A DNA stretch of 64,000 bases from Candidatus Micrarchaeota archaeon (GCA_021800515.1 JAJYYU010000001.1:6975-70974), one strand, 5' to 3'. Shown: positions 28,011-37,696, numbered from the stretch's first letter. The notes: generated by a model from the letters alone, not told the origin. Numbers and translations: made by a program.

Positions 28011-28501
28011 TTTATCCCTATTTTTTATTTTTTACTGCCTCTTTTAAATATTTGTGCAGCACTGCATTTGGTAATATTATTCTATAGCGATTATTATATA
28101 ACTTTCCTTGAAAGCTATGCCTCTTTCTGACTGGCAGATATTAAACAAAGAGAGTGGGAATCTGCAGAAACTTCTAGTAAATATTGTGCTTTTATGAATA
28201 AAAACTAATTGCAGATAAATATGAACTTTATTTTTTATATGGATTCAGGAATCTAATATATGATTTTCAGTTGGTATTTTTTGGGCTCCTGCAATTGCCT
28301 CCCTGGAAATTTGATCTTTACCCAGTATTTTCTTCATATGTAATCAATATACAAAATTAGATAATATTAAATAGCATTTTGTATTATATATTTATATAAT
28401 TTATAGGGCTAAATATTAACAATTAATGTTTACAAAAAGTTCATCGCATAAATATGCACAGGTTTCATGCAGCCTAAATATCAATTTAATGTTGTGAATA
28501 G

Positions 28502-31500
28502 ATGAATAAAACAAACAGGAAATTCAGCAATTCCATGAAAATATATTCTCTGCTATTTGTTTCTATCCTATTGTTTGTTTCCCTTATAAGCTTTTCATCA
28601 GCAGCGAAGTTCACACTTAAAGTTGCAAAAGGAAGCATTTTATTCGGTAATGTAGGGCTTCCGTCGCTGAATACCTGTTTCTGGAACACAGGCTCAGGGC
28701 AAAGCCTTATAACAAAGCTTTCAACTCCGACTGTAGGTTATTTCCCTTTAGGGTTCAACCAGCGGTCTGCCACATTCTTTAACTGCGAGTATATAACTGC
28801 AGTCTCTTTCACAACAAATTATCCAGATGCAGAGCAAGGTGTCCTTGTACCTTTGCCAAGCACAACAACATTGCCTAGCGTGACTCCTCTTACCCAAAAA
28901 GTACTTGACTATAATCAACAGAATGCGCAGTGGCTTATCACATGCCCTCAGGCTCCAGATCCTTCTAATACTCCTGAATATTTTGCATCAAATCCAGGAT
29001 CCTTTATAGGAGGCGATGAATGTCTTGCTCCTAAAATTCCTCTCCTTTCAGTTATAGTCCTTCAGAATAATTATTCCTGGAACACAGGCTCATACAGCGC
29101 CACAATGCCCTTGCCTTCTCCAGGTTCAATGTATGCATTTTCATGTTTCTGCCAGAACGGAAGGACAGCATATGCAGAAATCAACAACATATTTGTTTTA
29201 AGCCCTGGCACAGGCACAGAAACCAATCTGGCATATTCTGGATCTGCCAGGGATAATGGGTTCGCGGCTCCTTCTAATGATTTATACAATATTTCTAATG
29301 CATATGATTCGCAATCAAATATATATTCTGGCGTGCCCTCTGGTGCACAGCAAGGAATATGGACATGGAACGCAAGGTATGCTGATTTTGCAAATGCTCC
29401 GACAAGCGAGCTTACTCAGACTAGCAGCCATGGGCTCTACTTTTATTTTACATATAGATTAATGTCTCCCTGGGTCGGCTTGGCGTTTGGCCAGCCATAT
29501 GGGCCTCTGCTTTGTCCTGTTTGGATCCCTCCCACACCTGTATCCCCTCCTATCTCCCTTTGCACAGAGCAGTATACATGCAAGTATTCTTATTCATATT
29601 CTGAGACAAGTTCAATAAATTCTATAGCGAATTCAAACATAATAATTCCGACTGCGCCGTCAACTACAAAGCAGGGCGCAAGCTCGCTTACAACATGGGG
29701 CAAAGTCCCTATCCTCCCATATCTTCTTTACAATATAAGCATACCTGTCATACAAAGCGATATAACAGGAAATTCTCTTCTTTATCTTAATGGCTCATAT
29801 GATCTGTACAGCGCACACAATTTCCTAAATCCTGGAAATTATCTTGATCCTCTGAAGCTTGAGCTGAATTCAAGCATGTTCGTCAATGTAAAGACCTCAA
29901 GCGGATACCAGCTTGAAGAGTTCCCGTCAAATATGCTCTCATTCAATTCTGCTGAAGTTTCAGCTATAATGAATGCTAAATATGCAAATAACAAAAATAG
30001 CCAGTATTTCATTGCTGGTGGAAAATCCTCATTCCTGACCACTATAGGGAACTCACAGTCAGCTTCGTCTCAGTCTCTTGCAAACTGTTTCAGTGGTGGC
30101 GCGCACAATTGCAATGCCGAATCCGTGACACAGTTCTGCAGTGAAAATCCAAATTCCTGCCCTGCAGCAACAAAAGCAAAAAAATCCTTTATTTCAATAT
30201 TCAATGCATCATCGCTAACAATAACACCTGTTACAGGCGCAAACAATTCCTATGATTTTGCGCCTTCTTCCAGCAGCAACAGTATTTCTTATGTGCCGAC
30301 AACAAGCAAATCAGCACCGAGCAAATCAGTGTCTGTAACTCCGCAGCATACAAGCCAGCCTGCAAGCTATACTCCTTTTACAGGGCCTATACAAATTCCA
30401 AATCCTGTCTATGCAACAGTGACTCCTGAAGGTGATATATATATAATAAGTGAGACTTCATCAACCACCTGCTCAGGAGGGCTATGGTGTATTTTTGATA
30501 TAAAAAATGCAGTTAATGTTAATGAAAATCTTATAATACTGCAGCCAATACCAAAAGGTTATTACAATCTCTCAATATACCAGCCAGGAACAGTTTCAGG
30601 CCCTGTCGGGCTTCCATCCCCATCATATGCTGCATGGCAGAACACATGGGAGAACTACTGGAAGAATTCTGTTACAGAGCAGTCAAATACTATCTATGTG
30701 ACAACGATAATACCTGTAGCAAGCGGGCAAATCGATTTCGGATGGTTTTCGCAGCATGTCTCGGCCGCATCAGGAAATATCGGCGGATTTTACACAAACG
30801 CGATTGAAAATGCTGGGCAGGCTTTAAATACAATACAAAATGCGCTTGGAAATGCATGGAGCAGCCTAAGCAGCTTTGTCAGCAGTGGAATTCCATCAGT
30901 ATTTGTTCCAACTCCTGTTTCGTCATCTCTAACTTCAGCAGCCTCTTCTAGTCCTGCTGTAAGCAGTGAAACAAGTATTTCAATTCCGCCTGATTTTGCA
31001 TCTTCATCTTCCTCATCATCATCTTCATCCTCATCATCGAGCTCATGCTCTTCAGGCAGTTCAATGGTAACTGCATTTATTCCGACTTCAATTACTAGCG
31101 ATTACCAAGGAGATCTGTTTATGCTTGGTTATACTACCTCAAATGGTCAAACAGTACTTAAAATTTTTGAGCTTTTGAAAAATCCTTTGTCCGGATACCA
31201 GAACTGTGAAGTTTCAACAATAAATAATCCTACATCGCCTACAGATGAGTTTGCAGTATCTCCTGGAGGGCAGTATGTTTATATCGCATCCCCCCTTATT
31301 CCAAATAATGTTCTTGTATATCAAAATAATGGGCCTTCAGCCACGCATCCGAAGCCTCAATACACTTGCCCTCAAGGGGGATCATTATTAAGTTCAAGTT
31401 CTACAACCTGTTCAACAACTGCTAACCCACCTTCATGTGCATCTGGTGCAGGTTCATTTAATACAAAATACCAGGTATGTATGGTAAGCCCTGCTGGAGT

Positions 31501-34500
31501 TGCTGCAACTTCCCCAGGAAACTGTGTATCAGAAGATTCTCAGAGCAGCTGCCAGAGTACACCTAACTGCGCATGGGTTGCGACAGGGCCTCAAGCATGT
31601 ATTTATATTCCTTTTCTTGGTACAAAATGCGCAGGTGGTTATACTTGTGAGCCAGTAACAGTAAAATCTAAATCCAGTAACCCTAACTGCCCAAGTGGCA
31701 CATCATACAATACTGCTGATCAGGTCTGTGAAAGCATGCCTACATCAGGATGGACCTGCTCAGGCACAGGGGAAACAGTGCATGAAACTTCTACACATGC
31801 ATCGACTGCAACATGCACATATGCAGCAACAAAGAAAATATCCTCATCAAATGACTTCTCATTTGCAGGAAACATCATTCTTTCTTATTCCACATCAGAC
31901 AAGACATTCAACATCGCGCAATATCTCTCAATGGGCGGACCTTACAACTCCTCAGTTCTGCGTAAAACGTATTCTCCATCGGATACAATAAAATATTCTA
32001 TGCACATTCCTCTTGCTCTTGTAGATTCACAGGGCAATCTTTATGTTCTTGACTACTGGGGATTCCAAGTCGGAAACAACCAGCCATCTGCAATGCTGAT
32101 GCTGCAAGCATTCTCAGGCAGCCAGCAAGTGCCTATCAATCCATTCCCTATTTATGATTATTTGTCGCCAAGCGTGAATATAGCCCAAATTGTAAATTCA
32201 ACGCGTATCTATCCTCCATATGGCTGGCCTCTGTCAGTAAATATATCAACTGGCACAGGCACTTCTGCAAGTGATTATCTGTCTTACTGCATCAATGGAT
32301 GCACTGTGCCTGCAGGAGAGCTTGCGCTGTATCCTGCAGAAAGCCCATTTCATACAAATTATCTACCATTAGGGCCACTTATTAAAGCAGAAGGCATTGC
32401 AAGTCCGAATACCCCTTCAAGTGGCATCAGCACTTATTGTCAAGGAAAAAGTAAGAGCCAGTGTGCTAGCACTAACGGGTGCTCATGGCAAGCAACTGCA
32501 ATGGGCGATGCATGTGAGGTTGCGCCAACATCTTCTACTTCATCTTCTTCATCCTCTTCATCATCAAGTTCAGGTTCATCATCCTCTTGTCCTGGAGACA
32601 CGATTGAAAATCCAGGAAACTGCGCAGTGGGTCTCTCGACGCACTGCTCGAACAATGTTCCAATGTGCCCAGTTCTTATACCGATCTCTCCAAAAGGAAG
32701 TTCTACTGTAAGCGCAACAACAGGTGCAGAATTTGGATCAGACATAGGGCTTCCTTCGTTAGGGTTCAGCTCGAATTATAATGGCACAGGATTCCTAATT
32801 GCGCACTCCGGCTTAAGCCAGGGAGGCCAGAGCCCTTATACAGAACTACTTGCATTTAAGATGCAGCTTTATAACTATTCAGTACCTTCCTACTTCGGAA
32901 ATGCGAGATACACATGTTATATAAACGAGCCGATGGTAACGCCGACTGGTGCTGCATTGTCAAGCAATATGCAAAGCTGCGAACTTGTCCAGGGCGCTGG
33001 TCTTGGGTCAATGTATCCTCCTCTAATTGTCACGCCAAGCCCTCTTAATTACTCTGAGAACCTTGGTAGTTCATTGACCTATCTTAACTTTGTAAATCTG
33101 CTATCCTCACTTATACCTCTTGGCTCAAACTGCGTCTCAGTAAACAAAAATACCCTTTCTGCAACTCAAACATGCACTTCATCTTCCTCATCATCTCCAA
33201 ATCCTTCATCTGCAGCATCAACATCGCCTACGAATCCAGGAACTTTGCCAAAAACCCAAGTGCCGATTACGCTTAATTCTTCTATCTATGGCTATTATCT
33301 TATCCCTTTCAATGTTGTTTATTCAGTGACCCAGAAGTGGAGTCCTGCGCTTATTCCTGGATCCCTAGTCCAGACCCAAGTTCCCGGTACAATTCCTCCT
33401 GTCTGTCCTCCTTTGCCAGCACCGTTTCCTGCTGTACCTAACCTTGTAGGTCTTGGTGGGACAAATCAAAACAACCCTCTTACATGGCAGAATCTTAGAT
33501 CATCACCTTCGAAATCTAATTTCCTGCTTGGGCTAGGCGGAACATCATTTAACTTCAATCAGATTACTGCTCCTGCCCAGTCTGTTCCAAGCCCTGTTAC
33601 ATACATAAAGAGCATTGTTGATTCAAATCCTAACCTTAACTCAACATCTGCATACCTCTGTACTCAGAAACTGACTTTTGGCACATCTGATTCCAACTCT
33701 GTGACCTTATGCAGTGCATACACTGCAAAAGCAGTGCTTGCGCCTAAAAGCAACAATCTTATAAACAGGATAGAAGGAGGCCAGACATTCCTCCAGTACA
33801 TAAACAACAATTATTATTATGAGCCTAACCTTTCTGACAAGAATCTGATAATACCTCCTGTGCTCGACTACAACCAGTTCACGAATAGGCTGTTCGGCGA
33901 GATGTATATAAATTCATCGATAATTGGGCAGTATTATAATCCAACACCTCTTGTGGTTGAATCTGCAAGGAATTATACATATGAGATGATCAGCTTTGCG
34001 CAGATAGGGCTCAGCGGCACAACATATAATTCTTATTCAGCAGAAGATGCGATTCCTGTAAAGCCTGTCTTTACAGGATTAACATCAGGAGTCGGCATAC
34101 CAACAGGTTATTACCAGCCAGTGCCATTTCCATTTTATCCAGCGCCAACATTTAGTTATATTCCATCGACAACTCAGACATATTTAAATATAACAGAGTT
34201 ATATGGACTTAATACATATAAGAACAGGATATACCTCAATATGCAGAATTCGCAAAACAAGATAGGGCAAAATCTTATGGGCTATAACAGGTTTATATAC
34301 ACATATGTAGACAGATTTAACAACATTATTTCAATGCCTTTAGATGTTGACTTTGCAAATATAATTGCAATAAATATGCAGTCTAGCGAACAGGTGAATC
34401 CAAACAATGGAAACCAGACCGCAGTATCTATATCGGGCAATGTTGTTGGAATTGGCGGTTCTCTTCTTAATACCCTCTCTTCCGGGAATATTTACCTGTA

Positions 34501-35362
34501 TTATGATTCAAATCTAAATTACTATGATATAGATCAGGGCCAAGGGCCAGGGCTCGGCAATGGCTATTACACCGCTGCCCAGACCTGCGCATTCGGCCTT
34601 CCTATGTACAACTGCACTGTTGCAAACCCTCTTGCGAGCATAACCCAACCTGATTGCAGTGGCCAGCAGAGCAACGAGTTCTCAAGATATATCTGCCAGG
34701 CGCAGCAGATAGCGACAGGATACCAGGCGCAGGATTCAGGCCCTAACATCGCAAGCACAGTGACATTCCATGCACCTGCTAATTGCAAGCCACCTATAAA
34801 TTCAATGCTCCAACTGCCGCAATACAACTGCAATATATATGGTTATTATGGTCTCCCAACAACCGGTACACTTAATGGATTCAAGGCATACTGCAGCCCT
34901 GATTTTGTAAATGGTACAGGCACGCTTACGACTGAAATGGGTCTTATGGCAGTAGTTCCTGTAACAAACGGACAGTTCTCGTATTCATTTAACACATGTG
35001 GCACGGGTACTGCTAAGGTAATAGCAGTATATTATGGAGACCCTGCCCCAGAGCCGCAGATAATAGTGCAAACCAATCTGTCTTACTCAACAGGTGCAAA
35101 TCAGTTCTTCAACAATGTGAACGATAAATATACTAGAGATACTCTTGAATACTCTTATGTTAATGCTCCTAATTCAACTGCAATATCCTTCCCAATCGGA
35201 AGCTATCTTTTGAGCTTTGGGAACATAAATGCTGCTTATGAAATAGTAGGCTTGGTCTTATTGGTTGCAGCAGCATCTGCTGCGGCAATCCTGTTAAATA
35301 GAAAACGCAGCCAGCGCATGCATGCAGATACCAAAGGGCACAAGAGGCGCAGCAGCAAATAA
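28502..35362 (+). CDS. giant secreted, C-terminally membrane-anchored surface protein (2286 aa)
   Basis: Signal-peptide-like N-terminus (KIYSLLFVSILLFVSLISFSSA). C-terminal TM plus basic tail (IVGLVLLVAAASAAAILLNRKRSQR...). Ser/Thr/Asn/Pro-rich with very many N-x-S/T sequons and two poly-Ser tracts. Duplicated Cys module and blade-like motifs (GDIYIISE, GQYVYIASP, GNLYVLDYWG). Confidence 0.85.
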   Translation: MNKTNRKFSNSMKIYSLLFVSILLFVSLISFSSAAKFTLKVAKGSILFGNVGLPSLNTCFWNTGSGQSLITKLSTPTVGYFPLGFNQRSATFFNCEYITAVSFTTNYPDAEQGVLVPLPSTTTLPSVTPLTQKVLDYNQQNAQWLITCPQAPDPSNTPEYFASNPGSFIGGDECLAPKIPLLSVIVLQNNYSWNTGSYSATMPLPSPGSMYAFSCFCQNGRTAYAEINNIFVLSPGTGTETNLAYSGSARDNGFAAPSNDLYNISNAYDSQSNIYSGVPSGAQQGIWTWNARYADFANAPTSELTQTSSHGLYFYFTYRLMSPWVGLAFGQPYGPLLCPVWIPPTPVSPPISLCTEQYTCKYSYSYSETSSINSIANSNIIIPTAPSTTKQGASSLTTWGKVPILPYLLYNISIPVIQSDITGNSLLYLNGSYDLYSAHNFLNPGNYLDPLKLELNSSMFVNVKTSSGYQLEEFPSNMLSFNSAEVSAIMNAKYANNKNSQYFIAGGKSSFLTTIGNSQSASSQSLANCFSGGAHNCNAESVTQFCSENPNSCPAATKAKKSFISIFNASSLTITPVTGANNSYDFAPSSSSNSISYVPTTSKSAPSKSVSVTPQHTSQPASYTPFTGPIQIPNPVYATVTPEGDIYIISETSSTTCSGGLWCIFDIKNAVNVNENLIILQPIPKGYYNLSIYQPGTVSGPVGLPSPSYAAWQNTWENYWKNSVTEQSNTIYVTTIIPVASGQIDFGWFSQHVSAASGNIGGFYTNAIENAGQALNTIQNALGNAWSSLSSFVSSGIPSVFVPTPVSSSLTSAASSSPAVSSETSISIPPDFASSSSSSSSSSSSSSSCSSGSSMVTAFIPTSITSDYQGDLFMLGYTTSNGQTVLKIFELLKNPLSGYQNCEVSTINNPTSPTDEFAVSPGGQYVYIASPLIPNNVLVYQNNGPSATHPKPQYTCPQGGSLLSSSSTTCSTTANPPSCASGAGSFNTKYQVCMVSPAGVAATSPGNCVSEDSQSSCQSTPNCAWVATGPQACIYIPFLGTKCAGGYTCEPVTVKSKSSNPNCPSGTSYNTADQVCESMPTSGWTCSGTGETVHETSTHASTATCTYAATKKISSSNDFSFAGNIILSYSTSDKTFNIAQYLSMGGPYNSSVLRKTYSPSDTIKYSMHIPLALVDSQGNLYVLDYWGFQVGNNQPSAMLMLQAFSGSQQVPINPFPIYDYLSPSVNIAQIVNSTRIYPPYGWPLSVNISTGTGTSASDYLSYCINGCTVPAGELALYPAESPFHTNYLPLGPLIKAEGIASPNTPSSGISTYCQGKSKSQCASTNGCSWQATAMGDACEVAPTSSTSSSSSSSSSSSGSSSSCPGDTIENPGNCAVGLSTHCSNNVPMCPVLIPISPKGSSTVSATTGAEFGSDIGLPSLGFSSNYNGTGFLIAHSGLSQGGQSPYTELLAFKMQLYNYSVPSYFGNARYTCYINEPMVTPTGAALSSNMQSCELVQGAGLGSMYPPLIVTPSPLNYSENLGSSLTYLNFVNLLSSLIPLGSNCVSVNKNTLSATQTCTSSSSSSPNPSSAASTSPTNPGTLPKTQVPITLNSSIYGYYLIPFNVVYSVTQKWSPALIPGSLVQTQVPGTIPPVCPPLPAPFPAVPNLVGLGGTNQNNPLTWQNLRSSPSKSNFLLGLGGTSFNFNQITAPAQSVPSPVTYIKSIVDSNPNLNSTSAYLCTQKLTFGTSDSNSVTLCSAYTAKAVLAPKSNNLINRIEGGQTFLQYINNNYYYEPNLSDKNLIIPPVLDYNQFTNRLFGEMYINSSIIGQYYNPTPLVVESARNYTYEMISFAQIGLSGTTYNSYSAEDAIPVKPVFTGLTSGVGIPTGYYQPVPFPFYPAPTFSYIPSTTQTYLNITELYGLNTYKNRIYLNMQNSQNKIGQNLMGYNRFIYTYVDRFNNIISMPLDVDFANIIAINMQSSEQVNPNNGNQTAVSISGNVVGIGGSLLNTLSSGNIYLYYDSNLNYYDIDQGQGPGLGNGYYTAAQTCAFGLPMYNCTVANPLASITQPDCSGQQSNEFSRYICQAQQIATGYQAQDSGPNIASTVTFHAPANCKPPINSMLQLPQYNCNIYGYYGLPTTGTLNGFKAYCSPDFVNGTGTLTTEMGLMAVVPVTNGQFSYSFNTCGTGTAKVIAVYYGDPAPEPQIIVQTNLSYSTGANQFFNNVNDKYTRDTLEYSYVNAPNSTAISFPIGSYLLSFGNINAAYEIVGLVLLVAAASAAAILLNRKRSQRMHADTKGHKRRSSK

Positions 35363-35401
35363 AAGCAAGGATTAAAAATGAAAAATACAATATATAATAA
35401 G

Positions 35402-35458
35402 AATTTTTAAAGAAGTTTCATCAAAAGAAACTTTTAGGAAAAGTTTCATCAAAAGAAA
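35402..35458 (+). repeat. tandem hairpin-element dimer (degenerate type I + type II)
   Basis: AATTTTTAAAGAAGTTTCATCAAAAGAAACTTTTAGGAAAAGTTTCATCAAAAGAAA. Positions 35425..35455 are 29/31 identical to the tRNA-Ala intron, with a perfect 9-bp stem GAAACTTTT/AAAAGTTTC. Begins 40 nt after the giant-gene stop. Confidence 0.8.
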
Positions 35459-35506
35459 GGCATGTATAAAAAAGCAGAATAAATAAAGTAAAAAAAGAAT
35501 GAGAAA

Positions 35507-37696
35507 ATGATTATTTTAAGCTTCAGCGCGATACTAACACTGGTGCCTATAATAGTGATAATAATACTCATAGGAGCTGCGGCAGGGCTCTCAAGAGGCA
35601 TGGACTTTTTCTCTTTTTTTGGACTTAGCTCATTGCTTGGCTTTTCGCAAGGGGGCGGTGCTGGCAAAGGCTTCAAGTCTCTAGGAAATATAAAGACCAG
35701 TGCAAGCGCAAAGACATTGGCAAACGCAAGAAAAGCAGCCACAAAAGGCATACCTAAATATTTTAATGAGCAAAAAGCAAAAAAGCAGAAGCTAACAACA
35801 AGGATGTTTGAAATAGCGCAAGGTTTATCCCGTACTGGGGGAGCAGCAAAAACACCTTCTGTACTAGAAAAGCAGGTGCCTAAAGGGAAACCAGGAGGCG
35901 CGGCTGTTGCAGCAGCGCCTGCAGGGCTTTCTGCGTCTGGTTTTGTGCTTATGTCGATAGGAGGTGCAACTTTCGGGCTGGCTGAGAAAACCAAAAAGTT
36001 AGAGGAAGACAAAAAAAAGCAGCTTGAAAAACAGGCTTCAAATAAAATAAACACATTGAATGCTGAAAAGAAAAGATTAGAAGAACAGCGCAAAAAAATT
36101 GAAAATAAAATATCTGAAAAGAAAACTGAAAAGAAAGAGCAAGCAAAATCCAAGAAAACAGTATTTCATCTTTCTGGCTTTGGCTATGAATCTGTGAAAG
36201 GCCAGAAGCGCACTGTTAATGTAAGCATGCCTATCATAGGGTTGTTTTCAAAGAAATCACAAGTAGATACGCTTGAGGAAAAAATAGAAAAAATAGAACG
36301 CAAGCAAAATAATATTGACTACAAAATTAAATCTCAATATCTTAAAGACTTTAAAAAATCAAATCCAGAGGCGTATAAGTCTATCCAAACATATGTTAAA
36401 AACTCAGAGCGCACAGTGCATGATGCTGCGCTTGGATCTTATTTCAGAGTCGGAAACCAGACACTGCCACAACGTGTATTCGGTTTTTTTACTGGCCAGC
36501 ATCATCTTATGGCTCAAGATATTACAAATAATAAGATAAGCCCTGAGCAGTATCTTAAGACTCCGCGCATTGAAGAGAAACTGGTAGAAAGAGGTGTTTC
36601 AAAAGAAAGCATCGGATATTTCAGAAGCCAAGCGCATAAAATCAATCTTGAAGCAATCAGAAATGAGCTTAAAGCTGCAAGCGGTTTTGTTCCAGGCGCA
36701 GGTGTACAAAATTCGCCGACAGTTATGCCTGCATCTGCCCTTAATACCTCCACAGCAGCAAAGCAAAGAAATGAAGGTTATCTAGATCTGACAAGCGCAC
36801 TCCTGTTTAAAAATTCTATGAAAGATAATAATATAAGTTTGTCAGATAAGGATGCATCAGACTTGATAGATGCAATTAATAAAAAGAACTCTGCAAAAGA
36901 GGCTGAAATTCTTTCAAGAAACAATGTAATCCTAAATGAAGAAAACCGCCAAAAAATAATGGATTCATACAAAGAGTCTAGGAGGGAAGCGGCATTGATT
37001 GTGAAGGAAACCAATAGTAAAACTGTTTCTGAGTTCGCAGATAGGGTCAATGAAAACATACATGAACATTTCCAAGAAATGCATACAGAGCTTTTCAAAT
37101 CAGATCTTATTTCTAATCTTAAAAATAACAATCCTTCTTTATTGGATGAGATAAACCAGAAAATAAATAATTATAGCCCATATTCTCCTTCTGATCTTGC
37201 AAATTCAATGACCATGGAGCTGCTCAAGCAGAAGATAGGCAGTAAGCCTGTAACACAGGAAGCATATGATTATTTAAAAAGTGAGGCAATCAAAACAGAT
37301 CCTAACTTGGCGCACTCACTTGATGGAATTAAAATCAGCAGCAATGGAATGTCTTTGTCGACAGTGCGCAATGCACTTGCAGATTCGAATGATACAGTAA
37401 ATGAGAAATACCTGCGTAGAGCAGTTGATTTTGCAACTGCTGAGACAACGCATTTAATGAGCAATAAATCTAATCTTAAAAATATAGCAAACGAGTATGC
37501 AGCTATTTCAGAAGCCAAGAAAAAAACAGCATTTGAGGATACTATTCTTGGCAAGCACCTTCAGCAGATACTTGAAAAAGAGAAAGCGCAAAGGAAACAG
37601 GAAAGCGAAGAGGAGGAAGAGCGCGAGATCAATAGGGAAAAAGCAGCAGAAGAAAGGGAAAAACAGAAGAAAATCGAGGAAAATAAGGACAAATGA
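35507..37696 (+). CDS. hypothetical membrane / coiled-coil protein (729 aa)
   Basis: N-terminal TM (ILTLVPIIVIIILIGAAAGL), a Gly/Ala-rich region with a second hydrophobic segment (GLSASGFVLMSIGGATFGLA), Lys/Glu-rich coiled-coil stretches and an acidic/basic tail. No family recognised. Confidence 0.7.
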   Translation: MIILSFSAILTLVPIIVIIILIGAAAGLSRGMDFFSFFGLSSLLGFSQGGGAGKGFKSLGNIKTSASAKTLANARKAATKGIPKYFNEQKAKKQKLTTRMFEIAQGLSRTGGAAKTPSVLEKQVPKGKPGGAAVAAAPAGLSASGFVLMSIGGATFGLAEKTKKLEEDKKKQLEKQASNKINTLNAEKKRLEEQRKKIENKISEKKTEKKEQAKSKKTVFHLSGFGYESVKGQKRTVNVSMPIIGLFSKKSQVDTLEEKIEKIERKQNNIDYKIKSQYLKDFKKSNPEAYKSIQTYVKNSERTVHDAALGSYFRVGNQTLPQRVFGFFTGQHHLMAQDITNNKISPEQYLKTPRIEEKLVERGVSKESIGYFRSQAHKINLEAIRNELKAASGFVPGAGVQNSPTVMPASALNTSTAAKQRNEGYLDLTSALLFKNSMKDNNISLSDKDASDLIDAINKKNSAKEAEILSRNNVILNEENRQKIMDSYKESRREAALIVKETNSKTVSEFADRVNENIHEHFQEMHTELFKSDLISNLKNNNPSLLDEINQKINNYSPYSPSDLANSMTMELLKQKIGSKPVTQEAYDYLKSEAIKTDPNLAHSLDGIKISSNGMSLSTVRNALADSNDTVNEKYLRRAVDFATAETTHLMSNKSNLKNIANEYAAISEAKKKTAFEDTILGKHLQQILEKEKAQRKQESEEEEEREINREKAAEEREKQKKIEENKDK

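What the first reader, a model, noticed from the sequence alone, without database searches (positions are those of the whole stretch)
28502..35362. A 2286-aa anchored surface protein with duplicated Cys-Trp modules and poly-Ser linkers
Seen directly: a 6.9-kb gene encodes a signal peptide, a C-terminal TM helix and a basic tail. Ser/Thr/Asn/Pro content is extreme, with dozens of N-x-S/T sequons. Two poly-Ser tracts lie at about 31003..31060 and 32530..32590. A duplicated module reads SCQSTPNCAWVATGPQAC (about 31543..31600) and QCASTNGCSWQATAMGDAC (about 32456..32515). Scattered propeller-blade-like motifs are present (GDIYIISE, GQYVYIASP, GNLYVLDYWG). I recognise no characterised family for the whole protein. 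Inference: it may be a major glycosylated envelope, adhesion or cell-cell contact protein. In small-genome or wall-less archaea such giant proteins are prime candidates for host or surface attachment.
Basis: partly seen in the sequence, partly recalled or inferred. Interest (0 to 1): 0.6.

Follow-up and report, generated by a model that had tools for sequence, protein, structure and literature searches.

The report
Giant anchored Micrarchaeota surface protein
This 2,286-residue gene encodes a real, membrane-anchored surface protein of a tiny symbiotic archaeon (Micrarchaeota); it belongs to an unnamed family confined to one order, is not the cell's S-layer protein, always travels with (and is sometimes fused to) a second membrane protein, and most likely serves as a scaffold for contact with other cells.

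Summary
The ORF (28502..35362, +, 2286 aa) is real. It has a signal peptide, a C-terminal membrane helix and a basic tail, and it is the longest protein of a 0.8-Mb Micrarchaeota genome.

The poly-Ser tracts and the "Cys-Trp modules" exist but lie in fast-evolving, lineage-specific inserts. The "duplication" is a roughly 10-residue resemblance seen only in near-identical strains. There are 26 N-x-S/T sequons, fewer than the 41 expected from composition.

Seven conserved blocks are collinear across relatives. One carries a canonical YVTN propeller blade (profile vs PDB 1L0Q, E 7.6e-9). The last 525 residues match nothing known.

The family is single-copy and restricted to one order (64 of 86 good genomes). 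The genome separately encodes the known Micrarchaeota S-layer protein, so this gene is not the lattice protein.

The downstream 729-aa gene is a true partner. All 64 genomes with the giant have it, it lies directly downstream in 41 of them, and it is fused in frame in one genus.

Some relatives carry lysozyme, SLT or NlpC/P60 modules at one insert site.

Best reading: a two-protein trans-membrane surface scaffold for cell-cell (host) contact. A role as S-layer tether is the main rival.

This scan found the same family earlier on other genomes.

The parts
28502..28606 (+). Signal peptide (residues 1-35; likely cleavage after SSA)
   Evidence: Read from the sequence: basic n-region, an 18-residue hydrophobic core, then SSA|AK. 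N-terminal hydropathy maximum is 2.83. Homologues in 40 or more loci start the same way.
28727..30001 (+). Conserved distal blocks A (residues 76-325) and B (351-500); fold unknown, mixed beta and helix
   Evidence: Conservation profile over 29 homologues. AF2 N-half model has patches of pLDDT 70-93. No Pfam or PDB match.
30077..30376 (+). Variable insert v1 (residues 526-625), Cys-rich plus Ser/Thr linker
   Evidence: Alignment occupancy 0.10-0.42. 85% identity in the closest strain against 97-99% in the flanking blocks. In relatives this site carries Phage_lysozyme2, SLT or NlpC/P60 domains.
30377..31351 (+). Blocks C (626-750) and D (851-950): YVTN/NHL-type propeller blades, split by variable insert v2 (751-850, with poly-Ser 31001..31045)
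   Evidence: Family profiles hit PDB 1L0Q at E 2.4e-7 and 7.6e-9 through the blade DEFAVSPGGQYVYIASP..NVLVYQ (residues 915-941). Paraoxonase, PknD and Pizza propellers hit more weakly. The top Foldseek hits of the N-half model are all propellers but not significant.
31352..31831 (+). Variable insert v3 (residues 951-1110), 15 Cys, holds 'Cys-Trp module' 1 (31547..31600)
   Evidence: Occupancy 0.07-0.21. Wholly absent from same-genus homologue P0004 (154 of 160 residues deleted). The motif is missing from all other homologues.
31832..32401 (+). Conserved block E (residues 1111-1300), beta-rich, with GNLYVLDYWG
   Evidence: Occupancy 0.8-1.0. AF2 pLDDT 65-88. Weak blade-motif similarity to blocks C and D by hhalign, E about 0.01-0.09, not significant.
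32402..32701 (+). Variable insert v4 (residues 1301-1400): 'Cys-Trp module' 2 (32459..32515) and poly-Ser (32540..32572)
   Evidence: Occupancy 0.04-0.17. 85% identity in the closest strain; large indels within the genus.
32702..33376 (+). Conserved block F (residues 1401-1625), fold not resolved
   Evidence: Conserved but AF2 pLDDT is about 30-40. No Pfam or PDB match.
33677..35251 (+). Block G (residues 1726-2250): the family-defining, membrane-proximal C-terminal domain, ending in IGSYLLSFGNI
   Evidence: The best-conserved part. It has 22 invariant columns, including six Cys. AF2 pLDDT is 60-91 for residues 1920-2240, beta-sandwich-like. 209 cluster representatives among 1.84 billion proteins, always at the C-terminus. 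No Pfam or PDB relative.
35234..35362 (+). Membrane helix, basic cytoplasmic tail and stop codon
   Evidence: Read from the sequence. The same arrangement occurs in 141 distinct family tails.
35363..35506 (.). 144-nt AT-rich spacer with two copies of AAGTTTCATCAAAAGAAA
35507..37696 (+). Partner gene (729 aa): N-terminal membrane hairpin (LIGAAAGLSRGMDFFSFFGL), Gly/Ala-rich segment, then about 570 residues of charged, helix-prone sequence
   Evidence: The conserved N-terminal motif lies directly downstream of the giant in 20 of 41 fetched loci. It is present in 64 of 64 genomes that have the giant and adjacent in 41 of those. It is fused in frame to the giant in genus g7. No Pfam or PDB match.

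Best explanation
The gene encodes the local member of an unnamed, single-copy protein family restricted to one order of Micrarchaeota (the order that holds Ca. Micrarchaeum and Ca. Mancarchaeum).

Shown:
- The protein is exported through a Sec signal peptide and held in the membrane by one C-terminal helix with a basic cytoplasmic tail.
- Its ectodomain is a chain of seven conserved blocks: distal blocks A and B, YVTN-type propeller blades in C and D, blocks E and F, and a 525-residue membrane-proximal domain G that defines the family.
- These blocks are interrupted at fixed sites by fast-evolving inserts.
- It forms a conserved gene pair with the downstream membrane-hairpin, charged-helical protein. 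In one genus the two are a single polypeptide.

Inferred:
- The two proteins form one trans-membrane assembly. The partner's long charged domain lies on the cytoplasmic side. The giant's ectodomain crosses the 20-25 nm pseudoperiplasm and reaches the S-layer or beyond.
- The assembly serves as a scaffold that presents lineage-specific modules to other cells. In this acid-habitat strain those modules are Cys-rich knots on poly-Ser spacers. In some relatives they are cell-wall hydrolase domains.
- In other words, it is a host- or cell-contact device rather than the S-layer lattice.
For: - Real and conserved: homologues in 35 of 41 relatives, 64 of 86 genomes at least 90% complete in the order, 32 of 37 genera, and one copy per genome.
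- Phylum sample: found only in families f1 (45/55) and f3 (28/36), with weak partial hits in f7 and 0/103 elsewhere.
- Topology: and 141 family tails.
- Mosaic of conserved blocks and variable inserts.
- Propeller blade.
- Not the lattice protein: the SLP_Mh orthologue is present in the same genome and in most relatives. SLP_Mh is the most abundant A_DKE protein and forms the S-layer (bioRxiv 10.1101/2021.04.28.441871).
- Partner coupling: adjacency. Co-occurrence 64/64 and adjacency 41/64. Both giant copies in G039 have their own partner copy. In-frame fusions in G010 and G053.
- Contact role: Phage_lysozyme2, SLT and NlpC/P60 domains sit at insert site v1 in relatives. The inserts diverge faster than the blocks between strains, 81-85% against 94-99% identity. 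Golyshina et al. 2017 (PMC5498576) proposed cell-cell interaction for the huge YVTN/PKD surface proteins of Mia14.
Against: - There is no expression, localisation or binding evidence for this gene.
- No protein of about 213 kDa (the computed mass of the A_DKE homologue) was found in the A_DKE proteome table, which lists only about 40 A_DKE proteins.
- Both AF2 models are poor (mean pLDDT 52-53). The overall shape, the number of propeller blades and the reach of the ectodomain are therefore not established.
- The window's own protein carries no recognisable adhesive or enzymatic module.
- The side of the membrane on which the partner's charged domain lies is inferred, not shown.
- Genus g4 lives without the giant yet keeps the partner in 6 of 8 genomes.
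Confidence: 0.5

Rival explanations
1. S-layer tether or stalk, functionally like SlaB of Sulfolobales. The giant anchors the anchorless SLP lattice to the membrane and sets the width of the pseudoperiplasm.
For: - SLP_Mh has no membrane anchor once its signal peptide is cut. Its anchoring is an explicit open question.
- The giant has a C-terminal anchor, is single-copy and is widespread in the same order.
- Side views of ARM-1 show densities running from the S-layer to the membrane (PMC11329633).
Against: - Genus g4 (0 of 8 genomes at least 90% complete) and at least four other good genomes lack the giant. G007 (g4), G016, G033, G037 and G040 all keep SLP.
- About 2,200 ectodomain residues, fast-changing inserts and hydrolase modules are untypical of a structural stalk.
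- No protein of its mass was found in the small A_DKE proteome table, where SLP ranks first among A_DKE proteins. This is weak evidence.
Confidence: 0.2
2. Archaeosortase substrate. The conserved IGxYxLSxGxI motif, helix and basic tail form a sorting signal that the genome's unclassified archaeosortase-family enzyme cuts off, leaving the giant lipid-linked as ArtA does with PGF-CTERM proteins. This concerns the mode of anchoring and is compatible with either function above.
For: - The tail has three parts: a near-invariant motif at the outer end of the helix, the helix, and a basic cluster.
- The genome encodes an exosortase/archaeosortase-family protein (PF09721 at 62.8 bits, TIGR04178 at 38.8 bits).
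- 63 of 64 genomes with the giant have it. The only genus lacking it (g4, 0/8) is the genus that lacks the giant.
Against: - No other protein of the genome carries the motif.
- No known -CTERM model matches.
- The enzyme gene is never next to the giant.
- In genus g7 the motif runs straight into the partner's first helix inside one long ORF, so there it is internal and not C-terminal.
- The co-loss in g4 is a single evolutionary event.
Confidence: 0.12
3. It is the main S-layer lattice protein of this lineage.
For: Composition typical of acidophile surface proteins: low charge, rich in Ser/Thr/Asn. It is the largest secreted protein of the genome.
Against: - A canonical SLP orthologue is present.
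- The giant has no PF05123 or PF05124 match.
- An earlier follow-up note of this scan reports that the ARM-1 homologue is far too scarce. That claim was not verified here.
Confidence: 0.03
4. An internal envelope organiser. Giant plus partner couple a cytoplasmic helical scaffold to the envelope for cell shape, division or vesicle and nanotube formation, with no role in host contact.
For: - The partner has about 570 charged, helix-prone residues.
- The partner is more widespread than the giant (75/86, including g4).
- The pair is conserved across two families.
Against: Hydrolase modules and hypervariable inserts on the outward-facing part point to an external target. There is no similarity to any known cytoskeletal or division protein.
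Confidence: 0.13

Closest known systems
Large 'surface layer' proteins of Ca. Mancarchaeum acidiphilum Mia14 (MIA14_0152, _0331, _0793, _0946; Golyshina et al. 2017, PMC5498576)
   Same: Same order. Huge secreted proteins with YVTN/Kelch propeller and PKD elements, proposed to mediate cell-cell interaction. The probable Mia14 genome (G013, identified only by its 963-aa SLP) has a collinear 2811-aa homologue.
   Different: That paper calls them strain-specific and laterally acquired. Here the protein belongs to one single-copy family conserved across an order, with a defining C-terminal domain and a fixed partner gene. Neither feature is described there. I could not confirm which MIA14 number is the homologue.
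Methanosarcina mazei surface-layer protein fragment, tandem YVTN beta-propeller + PKD (PDB 1L0Q; Jing et al. 2002)
   Same: One blade (residues 915-941) matches the YVTN repeat consensus (whole-sequence E 7.6e-9). It is also an archaeal cell-surface protein.
   Different: Only one canonical blade is recognisable; the other putative blades are degenerate and separated by 100-160-residue inserts. This member has no PKD domains. About 1,700 residues have no counterpart in that protein.
SLP_Mh, the S-layer protein of Ca. Micrarchaeum harzensis A_DKE (Gfrerer et al., bioRxiv 10.1101/2021.04.28.441871)
   Same: Same organisms, same compartment, similar low-charge Ser/Thr/Asn-rich composition.
   Different: No sequence relation. 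SLP is 978 aa, matches PF05124 and has no membrane anchor. The giant has none of the S-layer domains and co-exists with SLP in the same genomes.
SlaB, the membrane stalk of the Sulfolobales S-layer
   Same: A type-I anchored, beta-rich protein beneath an anchorless lattice protein. This is a functional analogy only.
   Different: No homology. The giant is about five times longer, is not encoded next to the lattice gene, and is missing from some genomes that keep the lattice gene.
Integrin alpha subunits (architecture only)
   Same: Propeller towards the N-terminus, beta-sandwich 'legs', one membrane helix, a short basic cytoplasmic tail, and a second membrane protein as obligate partner.
   Different: The Foldseek matches are not significant (E at least 0.45, probability at most 0.15). 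There is no evidence of common descent. This is an analogy.
SPEARE proteins of Ca. Nanohaloarchaeum antarcticus (Hamm et al. 2019; recalled from memory, not checked here)
   Same: Giant multi-module surface proteins of a DPANN symbiont, thought to act on the host envelope.
   Different: Different phylum and different domains. No sequence relation was tested.

Membership tests
Archaeal S-layer protein family (Pfam PF05123 S_layer_N / PF05124 S_layer_C; SLP_Mh type) | Match to the S-layer Pfam models above the gathering score | tested here: not met
   P0001 has 0 Pfam families at E <= 0.01. Controls: SLP_Mh scores 58.8 bits and the genome's own SLP fragment 45.6 bits on PF05124.
Archaeal S-layer protein family (PF05123 / PF05124; SLP_Mh type) | It is the only candidate lattice protein of the genome | tested here: not met
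   A separate SLP_Mh orthologue lies at G000:C49:37891-39336 (57% identity, cut by the contig end).
YVTN beta-propeller repeat proteins (as in PDB 1L0Q) | Repeated blades of about 40 residues matching the YVTN consensus | tested here: inconclusive
   One blade matches clearly: the profile hits all blades of 1L0Q, whole-sequence E 7.6e-9. Other blocks share only a weak G-x-h-Y-h-h motif (hhalign E 0.01-0.09). Pfam propeller models hit 3-4 of 35 family members and not this one.
YVTN beta-propeller repeat proteins (as in PDB 1L0Q) | A closed propeller fold | tested here: inconclusive
   The AF2 N-half model (pLDDT 53) gives blade-like four-strand units. Foldseek top hits are propellers over 80-100 columns, with E 0.09-2. 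The putative blades were split between the two prediction jobs.
Archaeosortase / exosortase substrates (PGF-CTERM and related sorting signals) | Match to a known -CTERM sorting-signal model | tested here: not met
   NCBIfam finds 0 families for P0001.
Archaeosortase / exosortase substrates (PGF-CTERM and related sorting signals) | Signature motif + helix + basic cluster at the extreme C-terminus, shared by several unrelated proteins of a genome | tested here: not met
   The three-part tail is present. The motif occurs in no other protein of G000 and is internal in the g7 fusions.
Archaeosortase / exosortase substrates (PGF-CTERM and related sorting signals) | A cognate archaeosortase is encoded in the genome and co-occurs with the substrate | tested here: met
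   PF09721 at 62.8 bits at G000:C31. 63 of 64 giant-bearing genomes have it, and it is lost together with the giant in genus g4. This is one evolutionary event, so weak.
The unnamed Micrarchaeales giant-anchored-protein family (defined here) | C-terminal 525-residue domain G followed by IGxYxLSxGxI, one helix and a basic tail | tested here: met
   The window protein scores E 1.2e-186 against the family profile. 22 invariant columns are kept.
The unnamed Micrarchaeales giant-anchored-protein family (defined here) | Collinear blocks A-G and a partner gene with the LIAAAAGL[ST]RG hairpin downstream | tested here: met
   Blocks are collinear in 30 or more genomes. The partner lies at 35507..37696.

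The most novel reading that the evidence does not exclude
The giant and its partner are the two halves of an integrin-like trans-envelope link peculiar to Micrarchaeales. The outward-facing scaffold has exchangeable insert sites that carry the tools for a given host (hydrolases, lectin-like or Cys-knot modules). It is coupled through paired membrane helices to a long cytoplasmic helical protein, and it depends on a dedicated, so far unclassified archaeosortase-family enzyme that was lost together with it in one genus. This would be the first defined molecular candidate for how Micrarchaeota hold and sense their hosts.
Probability: 0.2. Interest if true: 0.7.

Novelty: new variant of a known kind. 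Interest (0 to 1): 0.42.

Why it matters
How DPANN archaea recognise and hold their hosts, and how the Micrarchaeota S-layer is fixed to the membrane, are both open questions stated in the literature.

This family is a concrete, order-wide, single-copy candidate. It has a fixed partner and fusions that show the two belong together. It also has homologues in a cultivated strain (A_DKE) and, by a note of this scan that I did not verify, in ARM-1, so the hypotheses can be tested directly with antibodies, cryo-ET and proteomics.

The finding itself is one more member of a family that this scan has already met several times. Its headline features, the Cys-Trp modules and poly-Ser tracts, are the least conserved parts of the protein.

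Tried and rejected
- Pfam and NCBIfam on the whole protein and on all family members: nothing for this member.
- AF2 of both halves with 35-42-row alignments: mean pLDDT only 52-53.
- Foldseek against PDB for both models: no match at E <= 0.001.
- Profile search of the C-terminal half against PDB sequences: nothing at E <= 1.
- Self-BLAST for internal repeats: none.
- hhalign between the conserved blocks: only weak, non-significant blade-motif similarity.
- PF05123 search in the genome and 40 relatives returned zero. This misled me until the SLP_Mh gene was fished out through its published antigen peptide. The current Pfam places it in PF05124.
- Looking for the A_DKE homologue in the published proteome table by mass and by locus tag failed. 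That table labels A_DKE proteins 'Thermo_' and holds only about 40 of them.
- Synteny with the window's other neighbours (NDK, PolX, L30/L15, GT4) holds only within the genus.
- The idea that the neighbouring 800-940-aa multi-pass protein in 14 loci is AglB rests on one weak STT3 hit (E 0.038) and no family match. It was left open.
- Sorting-signal idea: searched the genome and 0.8 Mb of related loci for the tail motif in other proteins and found none.
No reads, no frameshift check and no expression check were possible.

Full report
**1. What is in the sequence**

The window holds one uninterrupted ORF at 28502..35362 (+) of 2286 codons.

- It starts with a Sec-type signal peptide (MNKTNRKFSNSMKIYSLLFVSILLFVSLISFSSA|AK).
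- It ends with a 20-residue hydrophobic helix followed by NRKRSQRMHADTKGHKRRSSK.
- It is by far the longest protein of the genome, 2286 aa against 1166 for the next longest.
- The genome is 803 kb in 49 contigs, about 90% complete.
- Ser+Thr+Asn+Pro make up 39.5% of residues and charged residues only 8.2%. I know this composition from surface proteins of acidophiles (from general knowledge, not tested here).

- There are 26 N-x-S/T sequons against 40.9 expected from composition, so sequons are not enriched.
- The 'duplicated Cys-Trp module' is a resemblance of about ten residues. It gives no self-BLAST hit at E 100. Its C-x5-C-x-W core is found only in strains about 90% identical, which keep just the second copy.

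**2. Whose gene it is**

- Close homologues are labelled Micrarchaeaceae or Micrarchaeota.
- The published antigen peptide of the Ca. Micrarchaeum harzensis S-layer protein located that organism's genome among the same-family relatives (G076).

**3. Family anatomy**

An alignment of 29 homologues shows seven conserved, collinear blocks:

| Block | Residues |
|---|---|
| A | 76-325 |
| B | 351-500 |
| C | 626-750 |
| D | 851-950 |
| E | 1111-1300 |
| F | 1401-1625 |
| G | 1726-2250 |

- Five inserts with alignment occupancy mostly 0.04-0.4 separate the blocks.
- The poly-Ser tracts and both Cys-Trp pieces lie in inserts v2, v3 and v4.
- Against a strain about 90% identical, the blocks are 94-99% identical and four of the five inserts (v1-v4) 81-85% (v5: 96%).
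- Within the genus, insert v3 is wholly missing from one homologue.
- Family proteins range from about 1,600 to 4,000 aa.

**4. Folds**

- Neither Pfam nor NCBIfam recognises any part of this member.
- Two AlphaFold2 jobs (residues 36-1110 and 1111-2286, with 35 and 42 aligned homologues) gave mean pLDDT of 53 and 52.
- Confident patches are in blocks A-E and in residues 1920-2240. They are mostly beta.
- Foldseek found nothing significant. The best hits of the N-terminal half are all propellers over two blades. Those of the C-terminal half are generic beta-sandwich adhesins, pilins and macroglobulins.
- Sequence profiles are more telling. The family profile matches the Methanosarcina mazei YVTN propeller 1L0Q at E 2.4e-7 and 7.6e-9, through the blade DEFAVSPGGQYVYIASP..NVLVYQ (residues 915-941). 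Paraoxonase, PknD and the designed Pizza propellers match more weakly.
- Blocks C, D, E and F share a weak G-x-h-Y-h-h strand motif (hhalign E 0.01-0.09, not significant).
Whether they close into one propeller with looped-out inserts is not settled, because my two jobs cut through the putative blades.
- Blocks E-G, about 1,100 residues, match nothing in PDB or Pfam.

**5. Distribution**

- Domain G defines a tight family: 209 cluster representatives among 1.84 billion proteins, 192 of them at E <= 1e-30, always at the C-terminus of a long protein.
- It is present in 64 of 86 genomes at least 90% complete in the order, in 32 of 37 genera. Almost always there is one copy.
- In a sample of 201 genomes of the phylum it occurs only in the two main families of this order (45/55 and 28/36). 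There are weak partial hits in one further family and none in 103 other genomes.
- Genus g4 lacks it in all eight good genomes.

**6. It is not the S-layer protein**

- Gfrerer et al. showed that A_DKE is covered by an S-layer made of SLP_Mh. This 978-aa protein is the most abundant A_DKE protein and has no evident anchor.
- I recovered its gene (L010) and found an orthologue in the window's own genome at G000:C49:37891-39336. It is 57% identical and cut by the contig end.
- Both proteins score above threshold on PF05124. The giant scores on neither S-layer model.
- A_DKE itself has a collinear 2010-aa homologue of the giant. The two proteins therefore co-exist.

**7. The partner**

The gene directly downstream (35507..37696, 729 aa) has three parts:

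- a conserved N-terminal membrane hairpin, consensus LSFGAIYALIPIIIIIILIAAAAGL[ST]RGxDIFxxFGIG;
- a Gly/Ala-rich stretch;
- about 570 charged residues.

The evidence for coupling to the giant:

- A model of the hairpin finds it directly downstream of the giant in 20 of 41 fetched loci.
- It is present in 75 of 86 genomes of the order, as a single copy in nearly all.
- Comparing by hand, all 64 genomes with the giant have the partner.
- In 41 of those the partner lies immediately downstream on the same strand. In four more it lies within 2-5 kb.
- The one genome with two giants (G039) has a partner behind each.
- In genus g7 the two are one ORF (3361 and 2562 aa). The giant's IGSYQLNLGNL runs straight into the partner's first helix.

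This is strong evidence that the two proteins act as one unit in the membrane. Genus g4 keeps the partner in 6 of 8 genomes without the giant.

**8. Clues to function**

- In relatives, the insert site equivalent to v1 holds a Phage_lysozyme2 domain (two loci), an SLT domain or an NlpC/P60 domain.
- Fast-changing, exchangeable modules on the outward part of a conserved anchored scaffold fit a device that acts on another cell's surface.
- Known hosts of acid-habitat Micrarchaeota are wall-less Thermoplasmatales. This fits the absence of a wall hydrolase here.
- Golyshina et al. already proposed cell-cell interaction for four huge YVTN/PKD surface proteins of Mia14. They described them as strain-specific acquisitions.

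The tether reading remains possible, since SLP anchoring is unexplained. It is weakened by two points:

- Genus g4 and several other good genomes keep SLP without the giant.
- The size and variability of the ectodomain are untypical of a stalk.

**9. A side lead: archaeosortase**

- The tail (near-invariant motif, helix, basic cluster) looks like a sorting signal.
- The genome encodes an unclassified exosortase/archaeosortase-family protein of 540 aa.
- That gene is present in 76 of 86 genomes of the order and missing from exactly the genus that lacks the giant. 63 of 64 giant-bearing genomes have it.

Against this lead:

- The motif occurs in no other protein.
- No known -CTERM model matches.
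- The g7 fusions make the motif internal.

I rate it at about 0.12.

**10. What could not be done**

There is therefore no read-level check for frameshifts and no expression evidence for this gene.
- The A_DKE proteome table lists too few A_DKE proteins to be informative.
I could not verify it.

**11. Verdict**

- This is a real, intact gene.
- It is an ordinary member of an undescribed but (within this scan) repeatedly seen, order-restricted family of giant anchored surface proteins.
- It is not the S-layer protein.
- The function as a host- or cell-contact scaffold is inferred, at about even odds.

Noticed in passing
G000:C31:5258-6877 (own genome, outside the window; L060:1285-2904): A 540-aa exosortase/archaeosortase-family protein (PF09721 62.8 bits, TIGR04178 38.8 bits) fits no named Art/Xrt subfamily and has an extra C-terminal domain of about 230 aa. 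It is present in 76 of 86 genomes of the order and absent from genus g4 (0/8), which also lacks the giant. Its neighbour on the opposite strand is a 981-aa PKD-like repeat protein with a C-terminal helix.
   Followed up: partly
L062:512-10597 (G010) and L063:373-8061 (G053), minus strand: In genus g7 the giant and its partner are fused into one ORF (3361 and 2562 aa). The giant's own helix and tail are replaced by the partner's first helix.
   Followed up: yes
L044, L054, L039, L034 (relatives): Phage_lysozyme2, SLT and NlpC/P60 domains are inserted into the giant at the site equivalent to window residues about 502-655. This hints that some Micrarchaeota attack a walled partner.
   Followed up: partly
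e.g. L029:11625-14228 (-); 14 of 44 loci: A multi-pass membrane protein of 800-940 aa lies next to the giant in the more distant relatives. It has a WPDGSVVEGW stretch and one weak hit to the STT3 C-terminal domain (2LGZ, E 0.038), but no Pfam or NCBIfam match. It may be a very divergent oligosaccharyltransferase.
   Followed up: partly
e.g. L029:4537-5979 (+); 17 of 44 loci: A Kelch-repeat surface protein (about 480-500 aa, signal peptide, C-terminal helix) recurs within a few kb upstream of the giant in relatives. It is not present in the window.
   Followed up: no
window 35413..35460: The spacer between the giant and the partner contains two copies of AAGTTTCATCAAAAGAAA. This is the hairpin-element dimer that another first-stage note describes.
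   Followed up: no
G000:C10, C4:15724, C25:72577 and C25:74545 (own genome, just beyond the window's right end): Several 590-1060-aa low-charge proteins start with pilin-like class III signal sequences (e.g. KAQSAMEYLMTYGWAILII). Two of them carry FQQM(I/L)N(I/V)..S repeats. They look like large pilin-borne surface modules.
   Followed up: no
Supplement of bioRxiv 10.1101/2021.04.28.441871, Table S5: A_DKE proteins in the proteome table carry 'Thermo_' accessions (SLP is listed as A_DKE Thermo_02382), so look-ups by Micr_ locus tag fail. Also, the current Pfam places SLP_Mh in PF05124, not in PF05123 as published.
   Followed up: yes
window 28011..28501: A 491-nt region of 27% G+C separates the giant from the divergently oriented NDK gene. 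It holds many TATA-like hexamers 100-120 nt before the start codon. No promoter could be assigned.
   Followed up: no
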